Positions 2 to 33,658 of a stretch of DNA of 64,000 nucleotides are shown in pieces. The position numbers and the translations under genes are program-made. Every line of letters begins with the position of its first letter. The first letter of the stretch is position 1. This DNA is from Escherichia phage 121Q: sequence record NC_025447.1, one strand, 5' to 3'. A model generated the notes under the pieces. The model was given only the letters and a program-made list of their open reading frames with translations. It had not been told where the DNA came from and did no database searches.

Positions 2-1006
2 AGTAAAGTTAGTAATACTAACGTTGACATTCTTATTGTTGATGAGTGTAGTATGATTTCAGATGAACTATTCCAGCACATACAAGACCAATTGTGGCGT
101 GTCCGTCGAGCAGTTTTATTCATTGGTGATCGTTGTCAATTGCCTCCAGTTGAGTCTGAAGGAACAATGGGCGAGACTAAATTGTCTCCTACGTTTGATG
201 TACCTGTTCAATATGAGTTAACTGAGGTTTTACGACAAGCATTAGATAATCCGATTCTGGCAGTTGCAACTGCTATTCGTGAGTGTATTGGAACTAGTAA
301 AAATCCATTTGATATTATGCACCAAACATATGGTTTAAGCACTATTACACCTATTGATGATGAAGATTTGTTTTTGAATGTTTATCGTGAATTCATTATG
401 GAAAACAAGGGGTCATCTAAAAAAATATTTGATTTCGTAAATGAAAATAAAATCTTAGCATATACTAACTATAGAGTTAATTTGGCTAATATCTACATTA
501 GAAGTCAACTATTTGAAGTACCAGATGAATTTACTAAAGGTGAGCCAATTGTTTTTGAAAGCATAACTGAGAATAGTCCATATGTAGTACAACAAATTAT
601 ACAATGTCCTGAAGTAAAACGTGAAAGTTTCATGGGAATAGATTGTTGGCAATTCCGTTTACCTAATGGTAGTTATATTTTAGGTGTAGGGCCAGAAACA
701 AGAATTGCAATGGACGAAAAACTTGATAAACTTGTTAAGGATATTGAGAAAAAAGAAATAAATCCATTGACAAAGAAACCATATATGTGGCAGGATTACT
801 ATGTAATTAAGAACAAATTACATATCATCAATTATCCTTATGCAACCACTGTTCATAAATCACAAGGAAGTACTTTTGATAACATTTGGTTTGATACTGA
901 TTTTATTGAACGTATTGGTACAAATGATACTAAGTGTAGAATTTTATACACTGCCATGACACGCCCACGCTATAGTGTTATGTTGAGGCAAAATGCACGA
1001 TTCTAA
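2..1006 (+). CDS. dda: Dda-like SF1 DNA helicase, 5'-truncated by window edge
   Basis: Frame stays open upstream of the first ATG to the window edge and encodes ILIVDECSM (Walker B-like motif II); C-terminal TVHKSQGSTFD matches SF1 helicase motifs V/VI. Confidence 0.8.
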   Translation, partial: SKVSNTNVDILIVDECSMISDELFQHIQDQLWRVRRAVLFIGDRCQLPPVESEGTMGETKLSPTFDVPVQYELTEVLRQALDNPILAVATAIRECIGTSKNPFDIMHQTYGLSTITPIDDEDLFLNVYREFIMENKGSSKKIFDFVNENKILAYTNYRVNLANIYIRSQLFEVPDEFTKGEPIVFESITENSPYVVQQIIQCPEVKRESFMGIDCWQFRLPNGSYILGVGPETRIAMDEKLDKLVKDIEKKEINPLTKKPYMWQDYYVIKNKLHIINYPYATTVHKSQGSTFDNIWFDTDFIERIGTNDTKCRILYTAMTRPRYSVMLRQNARF

Positions 1007-27292: not shown

Positions 27293-27688
27293 ATGAAGAA
27301 CAATATTGGAACTTCAATAATTAAACCACTTTCTTATTACCTTGAAAAATTTAGAAGCACAAATGGTAATAAATTTAATAATATATTTCAGTTCTCTCAT
27401 AAAGAATATATTACAATTGATCATTTTTCAAAGAAACTAATGTATGTAAATGATAATAGTCATATTATTAAATTATCATTCGATATTGAGTTAGATAAAT
27501 TAACATTTACGGAATACATTAATCAAAAAACTTCTTTTTTATGTCAATACAATAGGAAAGTATATAGTAATATTTCTATGTATCTAAATGATGAATATCA
27601 CTTTCAACAATCTACAATAGAAGAAGTATTGTTCAGTACTGAAGAATTAAAAGAACTATATTACTGGTATAATTATTTCACATCTTGA
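27293..27688 (+). CDS. EE-x-FFQ-x-S motif family protein (member 2)
   Basis: DEYHFQQSTIEE. Confidence 0.55.
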   Translation: MKNNIGTSIIKPLSYYLEKFRSTNGNKFNNIFQFSHKEYITIDHFSKKLMYVNDNSHIIKLSFDIELDKLTFTEYINQKTSFLCQYNRKVYSNISMYLNDEYHFQQSTIEEVLFSTEELKELYYWYNYFTS

Positions 27689-27743
27689 CATTATTGTGGG
27701 TTTATCCTACAATATATGATGATGCTGCATTGAGGATAAATTT

Positions 27744-28154
27744 ATGAGTTTAGATTTACACAATGAACTAAAATATTTTTTAGATTTGGACATATCAGAA
27801 TTGAACCACCACGTCAATCATATGACTAGTACTGTATGGTGGTCTAATGATCAAGACGACCCAATTATCCAACTAAGTGATGAATCGTCAATTATGCGAT
27901 TTTATAAGATTAATTATAAAAAGAACATCAAGATCACATATGTACCATACAAAAACATACTACTAGTCGAAACACTTAATCCAAGTTCTTTATTAAAAAT
28001 CACCGATTTAGATACATTACAAACAAGTGAATCTTTATTCCAACGTTCATTAGTTGATGATCTTGGTGGTATTACTTTTGAAGATATATTACAATTGAAG
28101 AATATGTATAGTGAATTGTTGGAGATTAAAAACACTTTAGTAATGGGGAATTGA
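27744..28154 (+). CDS. EE-x-FFQ-x-S motif family protein (member 3)
   Basis: SESLFQRSLVDDLGGITFEDILQL. Confidence 0.6.
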   Translation: MSLDLHNELKYFLDLDISELNHHVNHMTSTVWWSNDQDDPIIQLSDESSIMRFYKINYKKNIKITYVPYKNILLVETLNPSSLLKITDLDTLQTSESLFQRSLVDDLGGITFEDILQLKNMYSELLEIKNTLVMGN

Positions 28155-28155
28155 T

Positions 28156-28560
28156 ATGGTAAGTTTACTAGATATTGATAATACCAGTTTAGTGCTGGTG
28201 AAAAAAGGTTTAATTCCAAATTCTAAAAAAATTGATTATGCTGTTATTGAAACAAATATTGGAAATATCTGGTACGACTCTGAAAGGGATATTGTGTTTA
28301 GCTGTGTAGACAGTGATCGTTCTGAATGTTGTAGAGTCGGTCATGACGGACAATTTGTTTTTGAATTTCGTTATTGGAAGGACGCAAAATTTCACCAAGA
28401 ACTGGTTGCTTTGTCAAATGAACTATATACAGAAGAATCGTTCTTCATGGCTAGTACTATTAATGATTTTGGTTCAGTTACATTTGAGTACTATAAAAAA
28501 ATATACGCACTATCCAGAGAAGTTATGAAAATTATCAGAACTGCTGAAGGTAAAGAATAA
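28156..28560 (+). CDS. EE-x-FFQ-x-S motif family protein (member 4)
   Basis: EESFFMASTINDFGSVTFEYY. Confidence 0.55.
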   Translation: MVSLLDIDNTSLVLVKKGLIPNSKKIDYAVIETNIGNIWYDSERDIVFSCVDSDRSECCRVGHDGQFVFEFRYWKDAKFHQELVALSNELYTEESFFMASTINDFGSVTFEYYKKIYALSREVMKIIRTAEGKE

Positions 28561-28561
28561 C

Positions 28562-28939
28562 ATGACTACTATATATGATATTTTGGGTGTTCTGAGTAGA
28601 AATATAGATGATGATTTTGTTATTGTTCAAGATACTAGAAATACATTTCAACTACCAATAGGTTCACCAGATAGGTTAATTTTTAATAGATACTCAAATG
28701 AACTAACTTACATCCATGATGGGATTGCAATTGTATCAGTTTCTATAAACGACTATACAATACGATATGTATATGACTTCAACGATTATTGTACAAGAAT
28801 CCACAGTATTGATATTTCCGAAGAGGAACTATTCCAATTGTCATTGATTGAGAAAAATGTAATAGGAATTACAGAAATTGGTATTATTAAAAAAGCATTA
28901 AACTATACAAATATAAGAATTAATGGTGGGTGCAGATGA
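28562..28939 (+). CDS. EE-x-FFQ-x-S motif family protein (member 5)
   Basis: EEELFQLSLIEKNVIGITEIGII. Confidence 0.55.
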   Translation: MTTIYDILGVLSRNIDDDFVIVQDTRNTFQLPIGSPDRLIFNRYSNELTYIHDGIAIVSVSINDYTIRYVYDFNDYCTRIHSIDISEEELFQLSLIEKNVIGITEIGIIKKALNYTNIRINGGCR

Positions 28940-29391
28940 ATGTTGACGAAATAAAAAATCATTTTGAAATTGCAATGTCATGTGAATTTGACACACAACG
29001 TGTTCATGACCCGAAAGAACATATACGCATTTGTTGTGAATTGTCAGATGATTGTAATATTTTTATTGGAAAAACCTATGACATGATCGATCTTTCATGT
29101 ATAGATCCATTGGAAAGAAAAACAAAATATTTATATCTGTACAACACAACATCAGATACGATTGCAATACAACTAATATCAACCACAACATCCCACAGTT
29201 ATTATAACATAACTGAGGTTAGTAGTTTAACGTTAACCGAAGAAGGATTCTTTCAACAATCGCTTATTCGTGAAATTGGTGTTAGTTATGATGAGTTAAA
29301 TGTATTAGTAGATTGTTTCGAAAAATTGAGTACTTTTGTATTATCCCTTTTTAATATACAGTCGCAAAATCCAATGGTGGTGAAATGCTAA
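28936..29391 (+). CDS. EE-x-FFQ-x-S motif family protein (member 6)
   Basis: EEGFFQQSLIREIGVSYDELNVL; ATGA overlap start (track start 28930 is GTG). Confidence 0.6.
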   Translation: MNVDEIKNHFEIAMSCEFDTQRVHDPKEHIRICCELSDDCNIFIGKTYDMIDLSCIDPLERKTKYLYLYNTTSDTIAIQLISTTTSHSYYNITEVSSLTLTEEGFFQQSLIREIGVSYDELNVLVDCFEKLSTFVLSLFNIQSQNPMVVKC

Positions 29392-29825
29392 ATCCAAGTA
29401 AATTTCTCCACTTACTTTCGATAACATCAATACCGGATCTTACCAGTGAAACTAATGAATATCGTGAAGCTGGGGTGGTGTCTATGGAACTCGATACATT
29501 TGACCACAAATGCTATGTGACATATGACCCACCGCGTTATGGTAAAGAACATTCTTCTTTTATTTTTGTATTCGTATACACGGTATATGATAATACAACA
29601 CTTGATGATGTTTGTATTGACACATACGAAATTTGTGATAATATCATAACTGATGACAACAATAACTCATTTGATATGTCACTATATAACACAGAAGAAT
29701 CGTTGTTTCAACTTAGTACTGTTATTGATGCACCATCATTAGAAGATATAAAACAATTTCAAGAACATCTTGACGCAGTTCGTGAGATGTTCTATAATCA
29801 TTATCCAGAAGTAGAGTTCAATTAA
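29385..29825 (+). CDS. EE-x-FFQ-x-S motif family protein (member 7)
   Basis: EESLFQLSTVIDAPSLEDIKQF. Confidence 0.6.
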   Translation: MLNPSKFLHLLSITSIPDLTSETNEYREAGVVSMELDTFDHKCYVTYDPPRYGKEHSSFIFVFVYTVYDNTTLDDVCIDTYEICDNIITDDNNNSFDMSLYNTEESLFQLSTVIDAPSLEDIKQFQEHLDAVREMFYNHYPEVEFN

Positions 29826-30178: not shown

Positions 30179-30430
30179 ATGAGTGAACATAGTGCTGTGC
30201 TTAAAAAGATTTTAAAGGAACTTGATGGTGAGTTTAATGTCACAGAAGAAGAATATCAGCATTGGAAGAAAGGTTTTGAACAACTAACCGAGTATGATAA
30301 AGTGTTCAATATGATTGGCGTAATTAGCCAGTACTTACTCGGTGGAGGACGTGCAAGTGCTTCAATTCTGGCATCTGCAATCATCTGTACATCACGATGG
30401 TGTGATGAAAAAAGTTTGGAAGATTTCTAA
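30179..30430 (+). CDS. hypothetical protein
   Basis: ORF; start among several ATGs after GGAG (track 30140); start uncertain. Confidence 0.45.
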   Translation: MSEHSAVLKKILKELDGEFNVTEEEYQHWKKGFEQLTEYDKVFNMIGVISQYLLGGGRASASILASAIICTSRWCDEKSLEDF

Positions 30431-30482
30431 ATAAGATGCTATAATATATTATAGTACCTTAACAATATAAAAAGGATTTTAT

Positions 30483-31343
30483 ATGAAACCTATCCGAGTA
30501 CTTTCTCTTTTTAATGGAATGAGTGTGGGATATATGGCATTGCAAGATGCTGGTATCCCAGTTGAAAAATATTATTCATCCGAAATTGATAAGTACGCAA
30601 TAGCTGAATCTCAATCTAACTTTCCTGATATTATCCAATTGGGTGATGTAACTAAGTGGAGAGAATGGGATATTGAGTGGGACAAAATAGATTTATTAAT
30701 GGGTGGTTTCCCATGCCAAGCCTGGTCAGTTGCAGGTAAACAGGGTGGTTTAAATGATATACGTGGGCAGTTATTTTTAGTAATGGTTGAAATTTTTGAT
30801 CATATCAAAAGTCTCAATCCTAACTTGAAATTTCTGTTTGAAAATGTTAAAATGAAGGAAGATTTCAAAGAATACATTAATAGTATTTTAGGAATCACGC
30901 CAGTACTGATAAACTCCCAGCATTATACGCCTCACTTCAGGCAGAGATATTACTGGTACAGTACTGATAAGCTTTTTATACCACCTGCATTATCCAATGC
31001 ACCTAAACTTCAAGATATTATTGAAGATGGTTGGTACACTGACAGAACCGCTTCGTACTGTATAGATGCTAACTATTTTAAAGGTGGTGATTGTAACCAG
31101 TACTTTAATAAATCCAGACGACAATTGGTGTTTCGTGATCCAGTGATTAATCGTCAATATCTATTAGAGAATGGCAAAAGAAATATTGACTATAGACACT
31201 TAAGTGTAGTAGAATGTTGTAAATTACAGGGTGTTCCTGAAGATTTCTTTAAAGTGTCTAGTAAGACACAAGCATACAAAATGCTTGGGAATGGATGGAC
31301 TATGCCAGTTATATCACATTTACTAAGAGAGATATTCTTTTGA
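30483..31343 (+). CDS. DNA (cytosine-5)-methyltransferase
   Basis: Motif I LFNGMSVG (FxGxG), motif IV GGFPCQAWSVAGK (PCQ), motif VI ENVK, C-terminal LGNGWTMPV (motif X-like). Confidence 0.8.
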   Translation: MKPIRVLSLFNGMSVGYMALQDAGIPVEKYYSSEIDKYAIAESQSNFPDIIQLGDVTKWREWDIEWDKIDLLMGGFPCQAWSVAGKQGGLNDIRGQLFLVMVEIFDHIKSLNPNLKFLFENVKMKEDFKEYINSILGITPVLINSQHYTPHFRQRYYWYSTDKLFIPPALSNAPKLQDIIEDGWYTDRTASYCIDANYFKGGDCNQYFNKSRRQLVFRDPVINRQYLLENGKRNIDYRHLSVVECCKLQGVPEDFFKVSSKTQAYKMLGNGWTMPVISHLLREIFF

Positions 31344-31825
31344 ACATAAACAAATACCAAACTTATATAAAACGTACAGAAAGTTTCAAACGGCTGGCTG
31401 TAAAATCTGAATTAGAATTTAATTTGTATTATCCTAATATTGGTGATGAGGTATTTTATTGCTCTCATTCAAAGAATGGAACTTTACTTAAATCGGGTAA
31501 AGGAACTATTGTTGATATGACCGCAAATTTCAGAGGTAAACTTAATGTAATGTACAAAGTACAAGATTCAAGTACTGAGTGTATTCATGAAGTGATGCAT
31601 AACATACCTGCATATCCAAAAGATTTTGTTCAGCTAATATCTCGAAGGGAGAAACCTATGTTTTATTGTGGTTATGACAAATTAACCAAACAAATTATTC
31701 CTAATACTATGGGAAAATTTAAAAGTGATGTGAAATCTGAACTTGAAAAGAAATTTGGCACGTCATGGGAAACTGAAAACGAGTTTATCGAAATTCGTTT
31801 AATTGAAATTACTATACTTGAATAA
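31295..31825 (+). CDS. hypothetical protein
   Basis: ORF overlapping the 3' end of the methyltransferase gene; no in-frame ATG downstream of the overlap until far into the ORF. Confidence 0.45.
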   Translation: MDYASYITFTKRDILLNINKYQTYIKRTESFKRLAVKSELEFNLYYPNIGDEVFYCSHSKNGTLLKSGKGTIVDMTANFRGKLNVMYKVQDSSTECIHEVMHNIPAYPKDFVQLISRREKPMFYCGYDKLTKQIIPNTMGKFKSDVKSELEKKFGTSWETENEFIEIRLIEITILE

Positions 31826-31830
31826 TTACA

Positions 31831-31855
31831 AATCCACGCATTGCGTGGATTTTTC
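31831..31855 (+). terminator. intrinsic terminator
   Basis: AATCCACGCATTGCGTGGATT hairpin followed by TTTT. Confidence 0.55.
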
Positions 31856-31867
31856 ATAGGTGCATAT

Positions 31868-32383
31868 ATGCCAATTCCTTATGTTAAAATTATTAATAAT
31901 ATTCTCGATTCATGGGAAGATGTTATTACTGGTAAAAAGCAACCATCACCAGTACATGCTTTATCTGGGAAACTTCAATTCAGAATGTCAAACCAAACTG
32001 AAACATTTAATAATCATGATATTTGCATTACATTAAAAACACCTATTAGTATTGTAATTAAAAAAAATAAAGATGATGAATTGACATTATCTATTGGTCG
32101 TGATAAAATCATTTTAAGTAATTTGTCTGAAGAAGAATTCTTTCAAAGAAGTACTATTATCGATATGAAAGATTTCACATATGAATCATTGGTTGAACTC
32201 AATACACGTTTTAACGATATTCAGGAACGATTGCGACCAATTCTTCGTATCGAAGAAGAAGCCTGGATTGAAAGTATTAGGAAGATGCAAGAAATGTTGA
32301 AAGAAAATATTAACAATCTGGGTAAAGCTACAATGGAATTTGGTAAAACTTTTAAACTGAACTTTTCAAAGGATCGTAAATGA
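31868..32383 (+). CDS. EE-x-FFQ-x-S motif family protein (member 8)
   Basis: EEEFFQRSTIIDMKDFTYESLVEL; track start 31841 is TTG inside the terminator hairpin, first ATG at 31868 with AGGTG RBS. Confidence 0.55.
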   Translation: MPIPYVKIINNILDSWEDVITGKKQPSPVHALSGKLQFRMSNQTETFNNHDICITLKTPISIVIKKNKDDELTLSIGRDKIILSNLSEEEFFQRSTIIDMKDFTYESLVELNTRFNDIQERLRPILRIEEEAWIESIRKMQEMLKENINNLGKATMEFGKTFKLNFSKDRK

Positions 32384-32835
32384 AAATTGATAATTTGATT
32401 CATGTTTTAGGATCTTTACATAAAATATTATCACATCTACATGAGATAAAGAAACTGGGATTTAACATCTCAAATTCAATTGAAACTACATTTAAATATC
32501 AATCAATTACTGGTGATGGTTATTACATAATCGAATATACCTATGAAACCGATCCAGACTTCTATCCTCTTACGTTGAGAATTTATCCAACAAATCCGAG
32601 AGGAATTCACGACATATCATCAATTTCACTTGATCCAGATGGTGAAACGAGTATTGAATACAATAATGATTCAAAACCAGAATTTTACATTGATGATATT
32701 AAAATGATGTTCAACGATGAATATGTGTTCCAGCAAAGTACTGTGCATGATGTTGGAAGTACTAATGGACAATTTTGGAATACATGTTATTATCATATGA
32801 TTGAAATTTGTAAATTACTAAAAGGCGATGATTAA
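32380..32835 (+). CDS. EE-x-FFQ-x-S motif family protein (member 9)
   Basis: DEYVFQQSTVHDVG. Confidence 0.55.
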   Translation: MKIDNLIHVLGSLHKILSHLHEIKKLGFNISNSIETTFKYQSITGDGYYIIEYTYETDPDFYPLTLRIYPTNPRGIHDISSISLDPDGETSIEYNNDSKPEFYIDDIKMMFNDEYVFQQSTVHDVGSTNGQFWNTCYYHMIEICKLLKGDD

Positions 32836-33218
32836 TGAAATACAGCATTGAAGTACATTACACTACAGGGGACACTGAAAATTGTTATGACGTTCTTAAT
32901 ACAATTGATATTCAATGGTCTTCTAAAGAGGAAGCAGTTGCTGCTTTACAGTGCCTAAAAGAGCATTGGGTGTTTTATATGAAGCAAGATAATTGCTATA
33001 CTAAAGAACACGAAACTATCGTTGAAAATGCTAAACAAAAAGAGTGGTTTGACCCAATATCACCAGAATATTCATTCTTGGTTAAAGTTGGCGATGTGAC
33101 AGTTCCATTACGAACACCGTGGAACGGCTACTTTGAAACTCTTCATAATGCACGAGTTGTCGCTGTTGATAATCCTGAGCAAATCGATTTCGATTCATTG
33201 GACTGGAAAAAACTATGA
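32835..33218 (+). CDS. hypothetical protein
   Basis: 127-aa ORF. Confidence 0.55.
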   Translation: MKYSIEVHYTTGDTENCYDVLNTIDIQWSSKEEAVAALQCLKEHWVFYMKQDNCYTKEHETIVENAKQKEWFDPISPEYSFLVKVGDVTVPLRTPWNGYFETLHNARVVAVDNPEQIDFDSLDWKKL

Positions 33219-33658
33219 CAGTACTGCACCAATTGAAGAAGGTTAAGCATCCAGTTGTATACGAGGATTGGAAACGACAGAAATTGATGGGTGATTTTTA
33301 TTTCCCAAAATCTAAAGTTCTTGCGAATTCAAGATGTACATATGTCACACATAATTATAAAGATACAGTATTTGTTGAAATGGGTTTCAATCCATCAAAT
33401 ACAATGTTCAGTACTAACCAGACATTTTACAAATTTCATATCAATAAAGATTCATTTTCTATTATGATTATAAAATTTTTAGTTGAAGATCTGGTATACA
33501 GTGAAGAAAGAGTTCCTTTATCATTAGTGGATATTCCTTATGATAATTTAGAGGAAATGTACTTCCAACAGTTGACAGTGCAAGAAAACTTCGGTATGAT
33601 AGGACTTCAAGAGTTAGAGATGATTAAGCAAATTCGTGATATCTACTTTAAGGAGTAA
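33215..33658 (+). CDS. EE-x-FFQ-x-S motif family protein (member 10)
   Basis: EEMYFQQLTVQENFGMIGLQELEMI. Confidence 0.55.
   Translation: MTVLHQLKKVKHPVVYEDWKRQKLMGDFYFPKSKVLANSRCTYVTHNYKDTVFVEMGFNPSNTMFSTNQTFYKFHINKDSFSIMIIKFLVEDLVYSEERVPLSLVDIPYDNLEEMYFQQLTVQENFGMIGLQELEMIKQIRDIYFKE

What the first reader, a model, noticed from the sequence alone, without database searches (positions are those of the whole stretch)
30483..31343. Compact orphan C5 cytosine methyltransferase
The 286-aa ORF has the conserved C5-MTase motifs (FxGxG, PCQ, ENV, GN) but is short, and no restriction endonuclease partner is recognisable nearby. In a phage this suggests self-protective DNA modification against host restriction; the small variable region between motifs VIII and X implies a short target recognition domain.
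Basis: partly seen in the sequence, partly recalled or inferred. Interest (0 to 1): 0.55.

Follow-up and report, generated by a model that had tools for sequence, protein, structure and literature searches.

The report
Orphan phage cytosine-5 DNA methyltransferase
This is a real but ordinary and already-annotated gene: a small stand-alone cytosine-5 DNA methyltransferase of a PBECO4-like jumbo coliphage, which most likely methylates the phage's own DNA to escape host restriction enzymes.

Summary
The 286-codon ORF at 30483-31343 (+) exists as described and is a bona fide C5 cytosine methyltransferase (Pfam PF00145 E=5e-38; TIGR00675 above its cut-off). Motifs IV (PCQ, Cys78), VI (ENV), VIII, IX and X are present in canonical order. 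Motif I reads FNGMSVG, the DNMT3-type variant, not a literal FxGxG.

The window is an Asteriusvirus (PBECO4/phAPEC6/Sharanji-like jumbo coliphage, 99.6% nt identity). The identical protein is already in NCBI/UniRef as "DNA cytosine methyltransferase", and the phAPEC6 paper already proposes protective methylation.

No nuclease partner appears among nine neighbouring ORFs or within ±20 kb of a relative's annotation, so it is an orphan.

By sequence, family profile and a confident AlphaFold model (pLDDT 94; TM 0.80), its closest solved relatives are the DNMT3A/B/C catalytic domains. It belongs to a very large, mostly metagenomic family (phrog_116).

Target specificity is unproven. Orthologs at 76-78% identity in two Erwinia jumbo phages coincide with 5mC at CCWGG in virion DNA, and CCWGG is not depleted here although most G+C-rich palindromes are. 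Host Dcm was not excluded.

Side observations are more unusual than the gene: GCGC is absent and AGTACT is about 7-fold enriched, across this phage lineage.

The parts
30416..30445 (+). Sigma-70-like promoter candidate: TTGGAA, 18-nt spacer, TATAAT, with a TG extended -10. It ends 38 nt upstream of the start codon.
   Evidence: 10 of 12 consensus matches, TG present. The number of such sites in the region is not above shuffled controls, so this is a hint of host-RNAP (early) transcription, not proof.
30483..31343 (+). C5 cytosine DNA methyltransferase gene (286 aa plus stop)
30507..30530 (+). Motif I (AdoMet binding), LFNGMSVG, DNMT3-type variant
   Evidence: aligned to DNMT3C/3A SLFDGIATG; F10 and G12 nearly invariant in the family
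30702..30728 (+). Motif IV, GGFPCQAWS, with catalytic Cys78
   Evidence: G75, P77, C78 and Q79 invariant in 32 homologs. In the UE-S1 allele an intein is inserted immediately before this Cys.
30831..30848 (+). Motif VI, FLFENV
   Evidence: N121 invariant, E120 and V122 nearly invariant
30939..30956 (+). Motif VIII, RQRYYW
   Evidence: R153 and R155 invariant
30957..31190 (+). Target-recognition region (aa 159-236). It has a family-conserved core, YCIDANYFKGG (31056-31088) and KSRRQLVF (31110-31133), followed by a short variable insert.
   Evidence: core conserved, then a variable gap-rich insert before motif IX. (this region stays clearly conserved in the Hallingskeid ortholog, 78% identical overall). 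(pLDDT 73-95 here).
31191..31238 (+). Motif IX, YRHLSVVECCKLQGVP
   Evidence: E244 invariant, R238 and Q249 nearly invariant
31284..31322 (+). Motif X, LGNGWTMPVISHL. The GN is canonical and the following W..PVI.HL resembles DNMT3.
31658..31825 (+). Small downstream ORF, probably co-transcribed. It is annotated as 55 aa in phAPEC6. A 176-aa reading from 31295 overlaps the MTase gene by 49 nt and is probably over-extended. Function unknown, not a nuclease by any profile.
   Evidence: (only the C-terminal part matches the ORF directly downstream of the RaK2 MTase).
31830..31857 (+). Hairpin AAATCCACGC-ATT-GCGTGGATTT running into a T tract: likely intrinsic terminator closing the unit
   Evidence: The corresponding position is annotated as a terminator in phage UE-S1.

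Best explanation
The gene encodes an active, stand-alone (orphan) S-adenosylmethionine-dependent DNA cytosine-5 methyltransferase of an Asteriusvirus jumbo coliphage.

Shown: fold, catalytic motifs, conservation and absence of a nuclease partner.

Inferred:
- It is transcribed from its own host-type promoter inside a long block of small same-strand genes of unknown function.
- It flips its target cytosine out of the helix and methylates C5 through the Cys78 thiolate of the PCQ motif, assisted by Glu120 of ENV, as in M.HhaI and DNMT3A.
- It thereby marks replicating phage DNA so that host restriction enzymes cannot cut it.

The most likely target is the inner cytosine of CCWGG (Dcm-type). I put this sub-claim at about 0.45-0.5. 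A CCWGG specificity would give protection against EcoRII-type enzymes whatever the Dcm status of the previous host. It would also be the one common 5mC pattern that E. coli K-12's McrA/McrBC systems tolerate. Architecturally the enzyme is a minimal, DNMT3-like catalytic domain without accessory domains.
For: Identity: PF00145 E=4.6e-38, TIGR00675 above cut-off, PADLOC MTase_II E=1e-38. All catalytic residues are invariant in 32 homologs. The AlphaFold model has pLDDT 93.8 and pTM 0.91. It superposes end to end on DNMT3A/B/C-DNA complex structures at TM 0.80.

Functional gene:
- Orthologs at 63-100% identity sit at the syntenic position in Asteriusvirus, Mimasvirus, Hallingskeid and RaK2.
- An intein-bearing allele in UE-S1 keeps the catalytic Cys as the +1 residue.

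Orphan: no nuclease by Pfam or PADLOC in nine neighbours and none in the annotation ±20 kb.

Expression unit: promoter-like site with extended -10 and a downstream hairpin annotated as a terminator in UE-S1.

Methylation in relatives:
- Hallingskeid encodes exactly two predicted MTases. One of them, CDS0275, is the 78%-identical ortholog. Its virion DNA carries 6mA at GATC and 5mC at CCWGG.
- Kaldavass has three MTases (the ortholog is CDS0246) and three motifs (PMC11780129).
- RaK2, whose gp194 is the 63%-identical ortholog, was reported to contain 5mC by bisulfite sequencing, data not shown (PMC3622015).

Site statistics: in a window where G+C-rich palindromes are heavily avoided (GCGC 0.00, CCGG 0.16, CCSGG 0.12, GGWCC 0.43 of order-0 expectation), CCWGG is at 0.89.

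Established knowledge: McrBC cuts R-5mC and McrA cuts Y5mCGR, so C-5mC-WGG is tolerated in K-12. A 99.4%-identical phage (Sharanji) is listed with host K-12 MG1655.
Against: - No experiment on this protein or phage exists in what I could find.
- The CCWGG signal in the Erwinia phages could come from host Dcm; the authors say so.
- The enzyme is unrelated in its recognition region to Dcm/M.EcoRII: NF007772 scores 21 bits against a cut-off of 710, and solved Dcm structures match only around motif IV.
- The RaK2 paper speaks of a methylated CpG, which is not CCWGG.
- Non-depletion of CCWGG is shared by GCWGC and GCSGC, so it is not specific evidence.
- GATC is depleted (0.44-0.51) even though the phage lineage encodes adenine MTases, which weakens the 'protected sites are not avoided' logic.
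- Promoter-like sites are no more frequent than in shuffled sequence.
Confidence: 0.72

Rival explanations
1. Same enzyme and same protective role, but a different target: a short CpG-containing or other site (for example ACGT, or CpG in a wider context), in keeping with its DNMT3-like architecture. On this view CCWGG methylation in the relatives is due to host Dcm.
For: - The closest solved relatives are the CpG-specific DNMT3A/B/C.
- The RaK2 paper reports bisulfite evidence for a methylated 'CmpG' in a phage whose gp194 is the 63%-identical ortholog.
- RaK2 shows weaker avoidance of CCGG and CGCG than the window does.
- The recognition region is unrelated to Dcm.
Against: - Nanopore comparison of native against amplified DNA in two phages with 76-78% orthologs reported only GATC, CCWGG and (Kaldavass) TGCAT, with no CpG motif.
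- A-5mC-G or G-5mC-G would make the phage a McrBC substrate in K-12 hosts, on which close relatives are propagated (established McrBC specificity).
- The RaK2 data were not shown, the sentence is truncated in the held text, and RaK2's motif IV and recognition region differ from the window's.
- The DNMT3A residues that read CpG cannot be aligned confidently: HMMER splits or loses confidence in the alignment in this region.
Confidence: 0.17
2. The enzyme is not (only) a shield for phage DNA. It could act on host DNA or as an epigenetic or regulatory mark. Its preferred site might be one that the phage genome lacks (GCGC is completely absent), so that only the host chromosome is methylated.
For: - GCGC occurs 0 times in 64 kb (22-48 expected), 0 times in 60 kb of RaK2 and 0 times in 6.9 kb of Hallingskeid. 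All these phages carry the ortholog.
- If host Dcm explains CCWGG in the Erwinia phages, the phage C5 MTase left no motif in phage DNA.
- The family profile aligns with the GCGC enzyme M.HhaI through its whole length in one stretch.
- Genome methylation can turn McrBC against the cell's own chromosome (title and abstract of PMC2614495).
Against: - The evidence is purely circumstantial.
- The number of MTases equals the number of modified motifs in both Erwinia phages.
- The profile aligns equally well with M.HaeIII.
- Absence of GCGC fits the genome-wide avoidance of G+C-rich palindromes, with 27 of 64 hexamer palindromes absent. That needs no methyltransferase.
- Many hosts of this phage group lack McrBC (my own knowledge, not tested).
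Confidence: 0.06
3. The gene is an inactive remnant, or it methylates RNA (DNMT2-like) rather than DNA.
For: One relative is auto-annotated 'DNMT2', and the phage encodes tRNAs nearby.
Against: - All catalytic motifs are intact and invariant, and the gene is conserved over a wide phage lineage.
- DNMT2 matches are far weaker than DNMT3 or M.HhaI matches (E about 1e-9 against 1e-23; 91 against 151 bits).
- The DNMT2-defining CFT motif is absent (criterion from PMC3227630).
Confidence: 0.03

Closest known systems
Annotated orthologs in Asteriusvirus genomes (phAPEC6 gp123c QDF13752.1, PBECO4, slurp01, G17, Sharanji 'modification methylase HaeIII', SHEFM2K M2K_0397)
   Same: 99-100% identical protein at the same genomic position. 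Already named DNA (cytosine) methyltransferase, and protective methylation is already proposed in print.
   Different: Nothing of substance. None of them has been characterised experimentally. The 'HaeIII', 'HpaII' and 'DNMT2' labels are automatic best-hit names, not specificities.
Erwinia phage Hallingskeid CDS0275 and Kaldavass CDS0246; Klebsiella phage RaK2 gp194
   Same: Syntenic orthologs (78%, 76% and 63% identity) of the same size. They come from phages whose virion DNA was reported to carry 5mC: CCWGG by nanopore, and 'CmpG' by bisulfite in RaK2.
   Different: The hosts differ. RaK2 has PCT instead of PCQ in motif IV, an 8-residue insertion after it, and a more divergent recognition region. 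Attribution of the methylation to these genes is untested.
Catalytic domains of eukaryotic DNMT3A/3B/3C
   Same: Best solved-structure match by sequence (E about 3e-23, end to end), by family profile (151 bits) and by fold (TM 0.80, 26-28% identity). Shared features are similar length, the motif I variant FxGxxxG, the N-terminal PIRVLSLFxG...GI.VEKY..SE stretch and the motif X tail W(S/T)xPVI.HL.
   Different: - No PWWP or ADD domains.
- Motif IV is PCQ (bacterial type), not PCN.
- Motif X keeps the canonical GN (DNMT3 has GR).
- By my reading of the alignment together with remembered DNMT3A numbering, the residue aligned to DNMT3A R885 of the dimer interface is Ala.
- The recognition region is longer and not confidently alignable.
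- A bacterial Type II MTase profile (PDLC03272) scores higher than the DNMT3-length profiles.
It works like DNMT3's catalytic core but is not a member of the eukaryotic family.
M.HhaI (GCGC) and M.HaeIII (GGCC), the classical bacterial Type II C5 MTases
   Same: Same fold, same ten motifs in the same order, same catalytic chemistry. Family-profile scores are 131 and 122 bits.
   Different: They are partners of restriction enzymes and are 38-45 residues longer. No similarity indicates shared specificity. GCGC does not occur at all in the window.
E. coli Dcm / M.EcoRII (CCWGG)
   Same: Possibly the same target sequence and the same protective effect against EcoRII-type cleavage (inference).
   Different: A different subfamily. 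NF007772 scores 21 bits against a cut-off of 710. Only the motif IV-VI region aligns with solved Dcm structures. Dcm is 472 aa.
Dcm-like C5 MTase of phage KarlJaspers (bas06_0055), trigger of retron Ec86
   Same: A small (236 aa), orphan, coliphage-encoded C5 MTase compared with DNMT3A by its authors. It shows that such enzymes can be sensed by host defence (bioRxiv 10.1101/2023.08.16.553469).
   Different: Not detectably homologous beyond the superfamily: BLASTP E=0.04, and a different PHROG (757 against 116). It is a functional analogue only.

Membership tests
DNA cytosine-5 methyltransferase (Pfam PF00145 / TIGR00675) | Profile match above the curated thresholds | tested here: met
   PF00145 131.9 bits against 22. 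TIGR00675 119.1 bits against 100.65.
DNA cytosine-5 methyltransferase (Pfam PF00145 / TIGR00675) | Catalytic Pro-Cys dipeptide (motif IV) and the ENV glutamate (motif VI) | tested here: met
   P77-C78-Q79 and E120-N121-V122. They are invariant or nearly invariant in 32 homologs.
DNA cytosine-5 methyltransferase (Pfam PF00145 / TIGR00675) | AdoMet-binding motif I, FxGxG | tested here: met
   Present as the variant FNGMSVG (FxGxxxG). It aligns to DNMT3 FDGIATG, which binds AdoMet in solved structures. The literal FxGxG is not present.
DNA cytosine-5 methyltransferase (Pfam PF00145 / TIGR00675) | Motifs in linear order I-IV-VI-VIII-TRD-IX-X (not permuted) | tested here: met
   Positions 9-16, 74-82, 117-122, 153-158, 237-252 and 268-280.
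DNA cytosine-5 methyltransferase (Pfam PF00145 / TIGR00675) | Two-lobed MTase fold with a Rossmann-like catalytic domain | tested here: met
   AlphaFold model with pLDDT 93.8. Foldseek TM 0.80 to DNMT3A/B/C.
DNA cytosine-5 methyltransferase (Pfam PF00145 / TIGR00675) | Transfers methyl to C5 of cytosine in DNA | not testable with these tools
   Only indirect evidence: 5mC in virion DNA of phages with orthologs.
Orphan (solitary) phage methyltransferase | No cognate restriction endonuclease adjacent | tested here: met
   No nuclease profile in nine neighbouring ORFs (Pfam, PADLOC). None annotated within ±8 kb (phAPEC6) or ±20 kb (SHEFM2K). A novel nuclease among the hypothetical proteins cannot be formally excluded.
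Orphan (solitary) phage methyltransferase | Encoded in a virulent phage genome | tested here: met
   99.6% nt identity to Asteriusvirus jumbo phages.
Eukaryotic DNMT3 family | Closest sequence, profile and fold relative is DNMT3 | tested here: met
   However, a bacterial Type II MTase profile scores higher than the DNMT3-length profiles in PADLOC.
Eukaryotic DNMT3 family | N-terminal chromatin-reading domains (PWWP, ADD) | tested here: not met
   The protein is 286 aa and consists of the catalytic domain only.
Eukaryotic DNMT3 family | DNMT3-type motif IV (PCN) and motif X (GR), and the dimer-interface arginine | tested here: not met
   PCQ and GN here. Ala aligns with DNMT3A R885 (alignment; DNMT3A residue numbering is from memory).
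Dcm / M.EcoRII subfamily (NF007772) | Profile match above the curated cut-off | tested here: not met
   21.4 bits against a cut-off of 710. Only residues 68-123 align.
Dcm / M.EcoRII subfamily (NF007772) | Methylates the inner C of CCWGG | not testable with these tools
   Suggested only by nanopore data on phages with orthologs.
DNMT2 (tRNA C38 methyltransferase) | [quoted passage not shown] | tested here: not met
   No CFT in the protein. DNMT2 matches are weak.
KarlJaspers-type phage Dcm (phrog_757, retron Ec86 trigger) | Sequence homology | tested here: not met
   BLASTP E=0.04. Different PHROG.

The most novel reading that the evidence does not exclude
The methyltransferase is aimed at the host rather than at the phage. 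Its site would be one that the whole RaK2-like lineage has purged from its own genomes (GCGC: 0 occurrences in 64 kb here). Infection would then methylate only the bacterial chromosome, for example turning the host's own methyl-dependent nuclease McrBC, or a phage nuclease, against host DNA while the phage stays invisible. A milder version of this reading is that this very large DNMT3-like family, mostly from phage and metagenome sequences, is the true sister group of eukaryotic DNMT3 and, like it, works as a dimer.
Probability: 0.05. Interest if true: 0.8.

Novelty: already known. Interest (0 to 1): 0.15.

Why it matters
As a gene call it changes nothing. The identical protein is already in NCBI/UniRef as a DNA cytosine methyltransferase, and protective methylation has been proposed for it in print.

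What remains open is its target sequence. That determines three things:
- which host restriction systems these therapeutic-candidate jumbo coliphages evade;
- whether they are sensitive to methyl-dependent nucleases such as McrBC;
- whether they would trip methylation-sensing defences such as retron Ec86.

The enzyme is also a conveniently small, single-domain, DNMT3-like C5 methyltransferase. It could serve as a minimal model or tool if its specificity proves short.

Tried and rejected
1. Link to the experimentally studied phage Dcm that triggers retron Ec86. I located KarlJaspers bas06_0055 (the first three were accession guesses that hit other BASEL phages). It is not a relative.

2. Membership in the Dcm/EcoRII subfamily as support for CCWGG. 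Rejected.

3. DNMT2-like RNA methylation. Rejected.

4. Search for a nuclease partner with Pfam, PADLOC and two independent annotations. Nothing found.

5. AGTACT, the strikingly enriched palindrome, as the enzyme's target. Considered and set aside for two reasons:
   - No such motif was reported as modified in the nanopore study of two relatives, and short stretches of both genomes (6.9 kb and 1.45 kb) show the same enrichment.
   - A-5mC would be a McrBC substrate.

6. Site-frequency statistics as a read-out of specificity. They are only weakly informative, because CCWGG shares its non-depletion with GCWGC and GCSGC.

7. Literature searches for methylation data on Asteriusvirus and for a Dcm status of Erwinia hosts. 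Nothing decisive was found.

8. Tool failures.
Full report
**Observation.** The ORF is real. The ORF listing gives 30483..31343, + strand, ATG start, 286 aa, and I re-translated it. An AGGA lies 7-10 nt upstream of the ATG.

It matches the C5 cytosine methyltransferase models far beyond chance:
- Pfam PF00145: E=4.6e-38, 131.9 bits against a gathering score of 22.
- NCBIfam TIGR00675 'dcm': 119.1 bits against a cut-off of 100.65.
- PHROG 116 'DNA methyltransferase': E=5e-60.
- PADLOC Type II MTase: E=1.3e-38.

The conserved blocks are in canonical order:
- Motif I: LFNGMSVG (aa 9-16).
- Motif IV: GGFPCQAWS (74-82, Cys78).
- Motif VI: FLFENV (117-122).
- Motif VIII: RQRYYW (153-158).
- Motif IX: YRHLSVVECCKLQGVP (237-252).
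- Motif X: LGNGWTMPVISHL (268-280).

**Where the window comes from, and what is already known.**
- A 3-kb stretch around the gene is 99.6% identical to Escherichia phages IA-38, SHEFM2K and slurp01. It is 98.9-99.6% identical to the next ten listed relatives, which include phAPEC6, G17, Sharanji and PBECO4. These are jumbo myoviruses of the genus Asteriusvirus, about 350 kb.
- The protein is 99-100% identical in about 18 phage records, where it is annotated 'DNA methyltransferase', 'putative DNA-methyltransferase' or 'modification methylase HaeIII'.
- The exact sequence is in NCBI/UniRef as 'DNA cytosine methyltransferase' (P0151).
- The Sharanji paper lists the gene among genome-protection candidates (PMC11895373).
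- A comparative study of jumbo phages notes cytosine-5 methylases in this phage group (PMC7824862).

So both the observation and the interpretation are already in the record. No paper I could find characterises the enzyme.

**Context.** The gene sits in a long run of small same-strand ORFs of unknown function.
- Nine neighbours have no significant Pfam domain and no PADLOC (defence, including restriction endonuclease) match.
- No nuclease is annotated within ±8 kb in phAPEC6. In SHEFM2K (±20 kb) the only nuclease-type entry is a PHROG-labelled 'exonuclease' about 10 kb upstream.
- The gene is therefore an orphan by every test available, although a novel nuclease among the hypothetical proteins cannot be formally excluded.
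- A TTGGAA-18-TATAAT site with a TG extended -10 ends 38 nt upstream of the start codon. Such sites are no more frequent here than in shuffles, so this is only a hint of host-polymerase, early transcription.
- A G+C-rich hairpin followed by Ts at 31830-31857 is annotated as a terminator at the equivalent place in UE-S1.
- Between the gene and the hairpin lies a small ORF. Only its C-terminal part is conserved downstream of the RaK2 ortholog.

**What kind of C5 methyltransferase.**
- Against all solved structures, the best sequence matches are the catalytic domains of DNMT3C/3A/3B. They align end to end (residues 2-282 against 4-275, E about 3e-23), ahead of M.HaeIII and M.HhaI (about 8e-18), DNMT2 (about 1e-9) and Dcm (about 1e-3).
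- A profile of 32 family members gives the same order: DNMT3 151 bits, M.HhaI 131, M.HaeIII 122, DRM2 97, DNMT2 91, M.MpeI 69, Dcm 56.
- An AlphaFold model built on that alignment is confident (mean pLDDT 93.8, pTM 0.91). Its 50 best Foldseek matches in the PDB are all DNMT3A/B/C methyltransferase domains (TM 0.74-0.81, 25-28% identity).
- Features shared with DNMT3 are the motif I variant, the N-terminal PIRVLSLFxG...GI.VEKY..SE stretch, the W(S/T)xPVI.HL tail of motif X, and the small size.
- It is not a DNMT3 family member. It has no PWWP or ADD domains. Motif IV is PCQ, not PCN. Motif X keeps GN. Ala aligns with the dimer-interface Arg885 (residue numbering from memory).
- A bacterial Type II MTase profile scores higher than the DNMT3-length profiles in PADLOC.
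- That viral metagenomic genes are routinely labelled 'DNMT3A' is visible in the literature (PMC11309003). That DNMT3 arose from within prokaryotic C5 MTase diversity has been argued before (PMC3227630).
- The family is very large: 5,988 cluster representatives at E≤1e-10 and 1,628 at E≤1e-30.
- In tblastn against phage genomes the protein matches 788 records (E≤1e-5). Most are below 60% identity. The hosts include Klebsiella, Streptococcus, Escherichia, Vibrio, Mycobacterium, Bacillus and Bacteroides.

**The 'short variable region'.** The recognition region lies between motifs VIII and IX (aa 159-236, about 78 residues). It has two parts:
- a core conserved across the family (…DR.KSYCIDANYxKG.N…YF.K.RRQxVF);
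- a hypervariable insert that ranges from almost nothing (261-aa members) to about 60 residues or more.

The window's protein has a short insert. From my memory of the M.HhaI and DNMT3A structures, this region is shorter than in the classical bacterial enzymes and longer than in DNMT3A. Its length does not predict the length of the recognised sequence.

**Specificity: what evidence exists.**

(a) Erwinia jumbo phages Hallingskeid and Kaldavass carry orthologs at 78% and 76% identity at the corresponding position. Their locus tags, DMFGBAAK_CDS0275 and XGIBIPCR_CDS0246, are two of the 'predicted methyltransferases' in Table 3 of PMC11780129.
- Nanopore comparison of native and amplified DNA found 6mA at GATC and 5mC at CCWGG in both phages, plus an unidentified mark at TGCAT in Kaldavass.
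- Hallingskeid has two MTases and two motifs. Kaldavass has three and three.
- The authors caution that host methylases could be responsible.
- The recognition region stays clearly conserved between the window protein and the Hallingskeid ortholog, which is 78% identical overall.

(b) RaK2 gp194 is the syntenic ortholog at 63% identity, with PCT in motif IV.
- The RaK2 paper reports, as data not shown, bisulfite evidence for a methylated 'CmpG'. The sequence context is lost in the held text.
- Its statement that only methylation-insensitive enzymes cut RaK2 DNA may partly reflect missing sites (see below).

(c) In the window, G+C-rich palindromes are strongly avoided but CCWGG is not. CCWGG has 29 sites against 32 expected. 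For comparison, CCSGG has 2 against 16, CCGG 8 against 48, GGWCC 14 against 32, and GCGC 0 against 48. GCWGC and GCSGC are not avoided either, so this is compatible with protection of CCWGG but not specific to it.

(d) From established knowledge of E. coli's methyl-dependent nucleases (McrBC cuts at R-5mC, McrA at Y5mCGR), the Dcm pattern C-5mC-WGG is the common 5mC pattern tolerated in K-12. A 99.4%-identical phage is listed with host K-12 MG1655.

Against CCWGG, the enzyme is unrelated to Dcm/M.EcoRII outside the shared catalytic motifs. I therefore commit to CCWGG as the most likely target at roughly even odds. I treat 'another short site, possibly CpG-containing' as the main rival.

**Mechanism, and what is shown.**
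- Shown: the fold, the catalytic apparatus, conservation and orphan context.
- Inferred from the family's well-studied chemistry (M.HhaI, DNMT3A): base flipping, covalent attack of Cys78 on C6, and methyl transfer from AdoMet to C5.
- Inferred from context and from relatives: early expression, methylation of replicating phage DNA, and protection from cytosine-sensitive restriction.

A consequence worth testing follows from a published case. A coliphage C5 MTase acting at CCWGG activates retron Ec86 by methylating its msDNA (bioRxiv 10.1101/2023.08.16.553469). That enzyme (KarlJaspers bas06_0055) is not homologous to this one. If the target is shared, Asteriusviruses should nevertheless be sensed by that retron.

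**Novelty and interest.** The gene, its annotation and its presumed role are already known. It is a routine member of a very common family of orphan methyltransferases. Interest is low. The residual open question is the recognition sequence, which one simple expression-plus-sequencing experiment would settle.

**Things seen on the way.**

1. GCGC is completely absent from the 64-kb window (22-48 expected). It is also absent from 60 kb of RaK2 and from 6.9 kb of Hallingskeid. In the window, 27 of the 64 hexamer palindromes are absent.

2. AGTACT occurs 145 times against about 22 expected, and CAGTACTG 30 times against 0.6. It is spread evenly, in all three reading frames and between genes.
   - Synonymous codon choice is bent to create it. 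Ser-Thr is encoded AGT-ACT in 57 of 104 cases against 14.8 expected. Tyr in an xAG-Tyr-Txx context uses TAC in 23 of 30 cases against 8.4 expected.
   - The same 7- to 20-fold enrichment is seen in RaK2, Hallingskeid and Kaldavass. Two unrelated coliphages show the opposite, 1 site against about 15 expected.
   - I found no paper mentioning it, and I have no explanation.

3. The allele in phage UE-S1 (626 aa, 85% identity by phmmer) carries a Hint/LAGLIDADG intein inserted exactly before the catalytic cysteine (GGFP|CFPAGT…VVHN|CQAWS). A distant homolog has one at the same spot.

4. Nine ORFs flanking the gene form a tandem paralogous family. They share a C-terminal EE..FQxSTI.D motif, which is also present in Hallingskeid and RaK2.

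Noticed in passing
whole window (1-64000); also L010/L011 (RaK2), L002 (Hallingskeid), L008 (Kaldavass): The palindrome AGTACT is about 7-fold over-represented (145 sites against about 22 expected; CAGTACTG 30 against 0.6). It is evenly spread, in all three reading frames and in intergenic DNA, with synonymous codons biased to create it: Ser-Thr as AGT-ACT 57/104 against 14.8 expected, and TAC in xAG-Tyr-Txx 23/30 against 8.4. The enrichment is shared by distantly related RaK2-like jumbo phages and reversed (1 against about 15) in a T-even phage and a Drexlerviridae coliphage. This points to a DNA-level signal of unknown function. No literature was found.
   Followed up: partly
whole window; L009, L010, L011, L002: Extreme avoidance of G+C-rich palindromes. 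GCGC has 0 sites in 64 kb (22-48 expected), and 0 in 60 kb of RaK2 and in 6.9 kb of Hallingskeid. In the window, 27 of 64 hexamer palindromes are absent, including the PstI, PvuII, NcoI, KpnI, BamHI, SalI, XhoI, SacI, SphI and NheI sites. CCGG is at 0.16 and CCSGG at 0.12 of expectation. Total loss of a 4-mer suggests selection by a 4-base-specific agent common to the lineage, possibly phage-encoded. It may also explain the 'restriction-resistant DNA' reported for RaK2.
   Followed up: partly
L003:1425-3305 (Escherichia phage UE-S1, UES1_076); proteins P0001, P0033: The orthologous methyltransferase of phage UE-S1 (626 aa) carries an intein of about 340 aa (Hint plus LAGLIDADG homing endonuclease). 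It is inserted exactly before the catalytic Cys of motif IV (GGFP|CFPAGT...VVHN|CQAWS). A distant homolog (668 aa) has an intein at the same site. The window's copy is intein-free.
   Followed up: yes
27293-29825 and 31841-33658 (+ strand): Nine ORFs of 125-180 aa flanking the methyltransferase gene form a tandem paralogous family. Pairwise identity to the first is 17-30%, with a conserved C-terminal motif EE..FQxSTI.D..G. None has a Pfam or PADLOC match. Copies of the motif also occur next to the orthologous gene in Hallingskeid and RaK2.
   Followed up: partly
31295-31825 (+): The ORF downstream of the methyltransferase has an ambiguous start. A 176-aa reading overlaps the MTase gene by 49 nt, UE-S1 annotates 133 aa, and phAPEC6 annotates 55 aa. 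Only the C-terminal part is conserved downstream of RaK2 gp194. Function unknown.
   Followed up: partly
L011:16709-17602 (RaK2 gp194): The RaK2 ortholog has PCT instead of PCQ in motif IV (closer to the DNMT3 PCN) and an 8-residue insertion after it. Within one orthologous lineage the Gln of PCQ is therefore not fixed.
   Followed up: no
30721-30725: One of the window's 29 CCWGG sites (CCTGG) lies inside the methyltransferase gene itself, in the codons for Ala-Trp of motif IV (PCQAWS).
   Followed up: no
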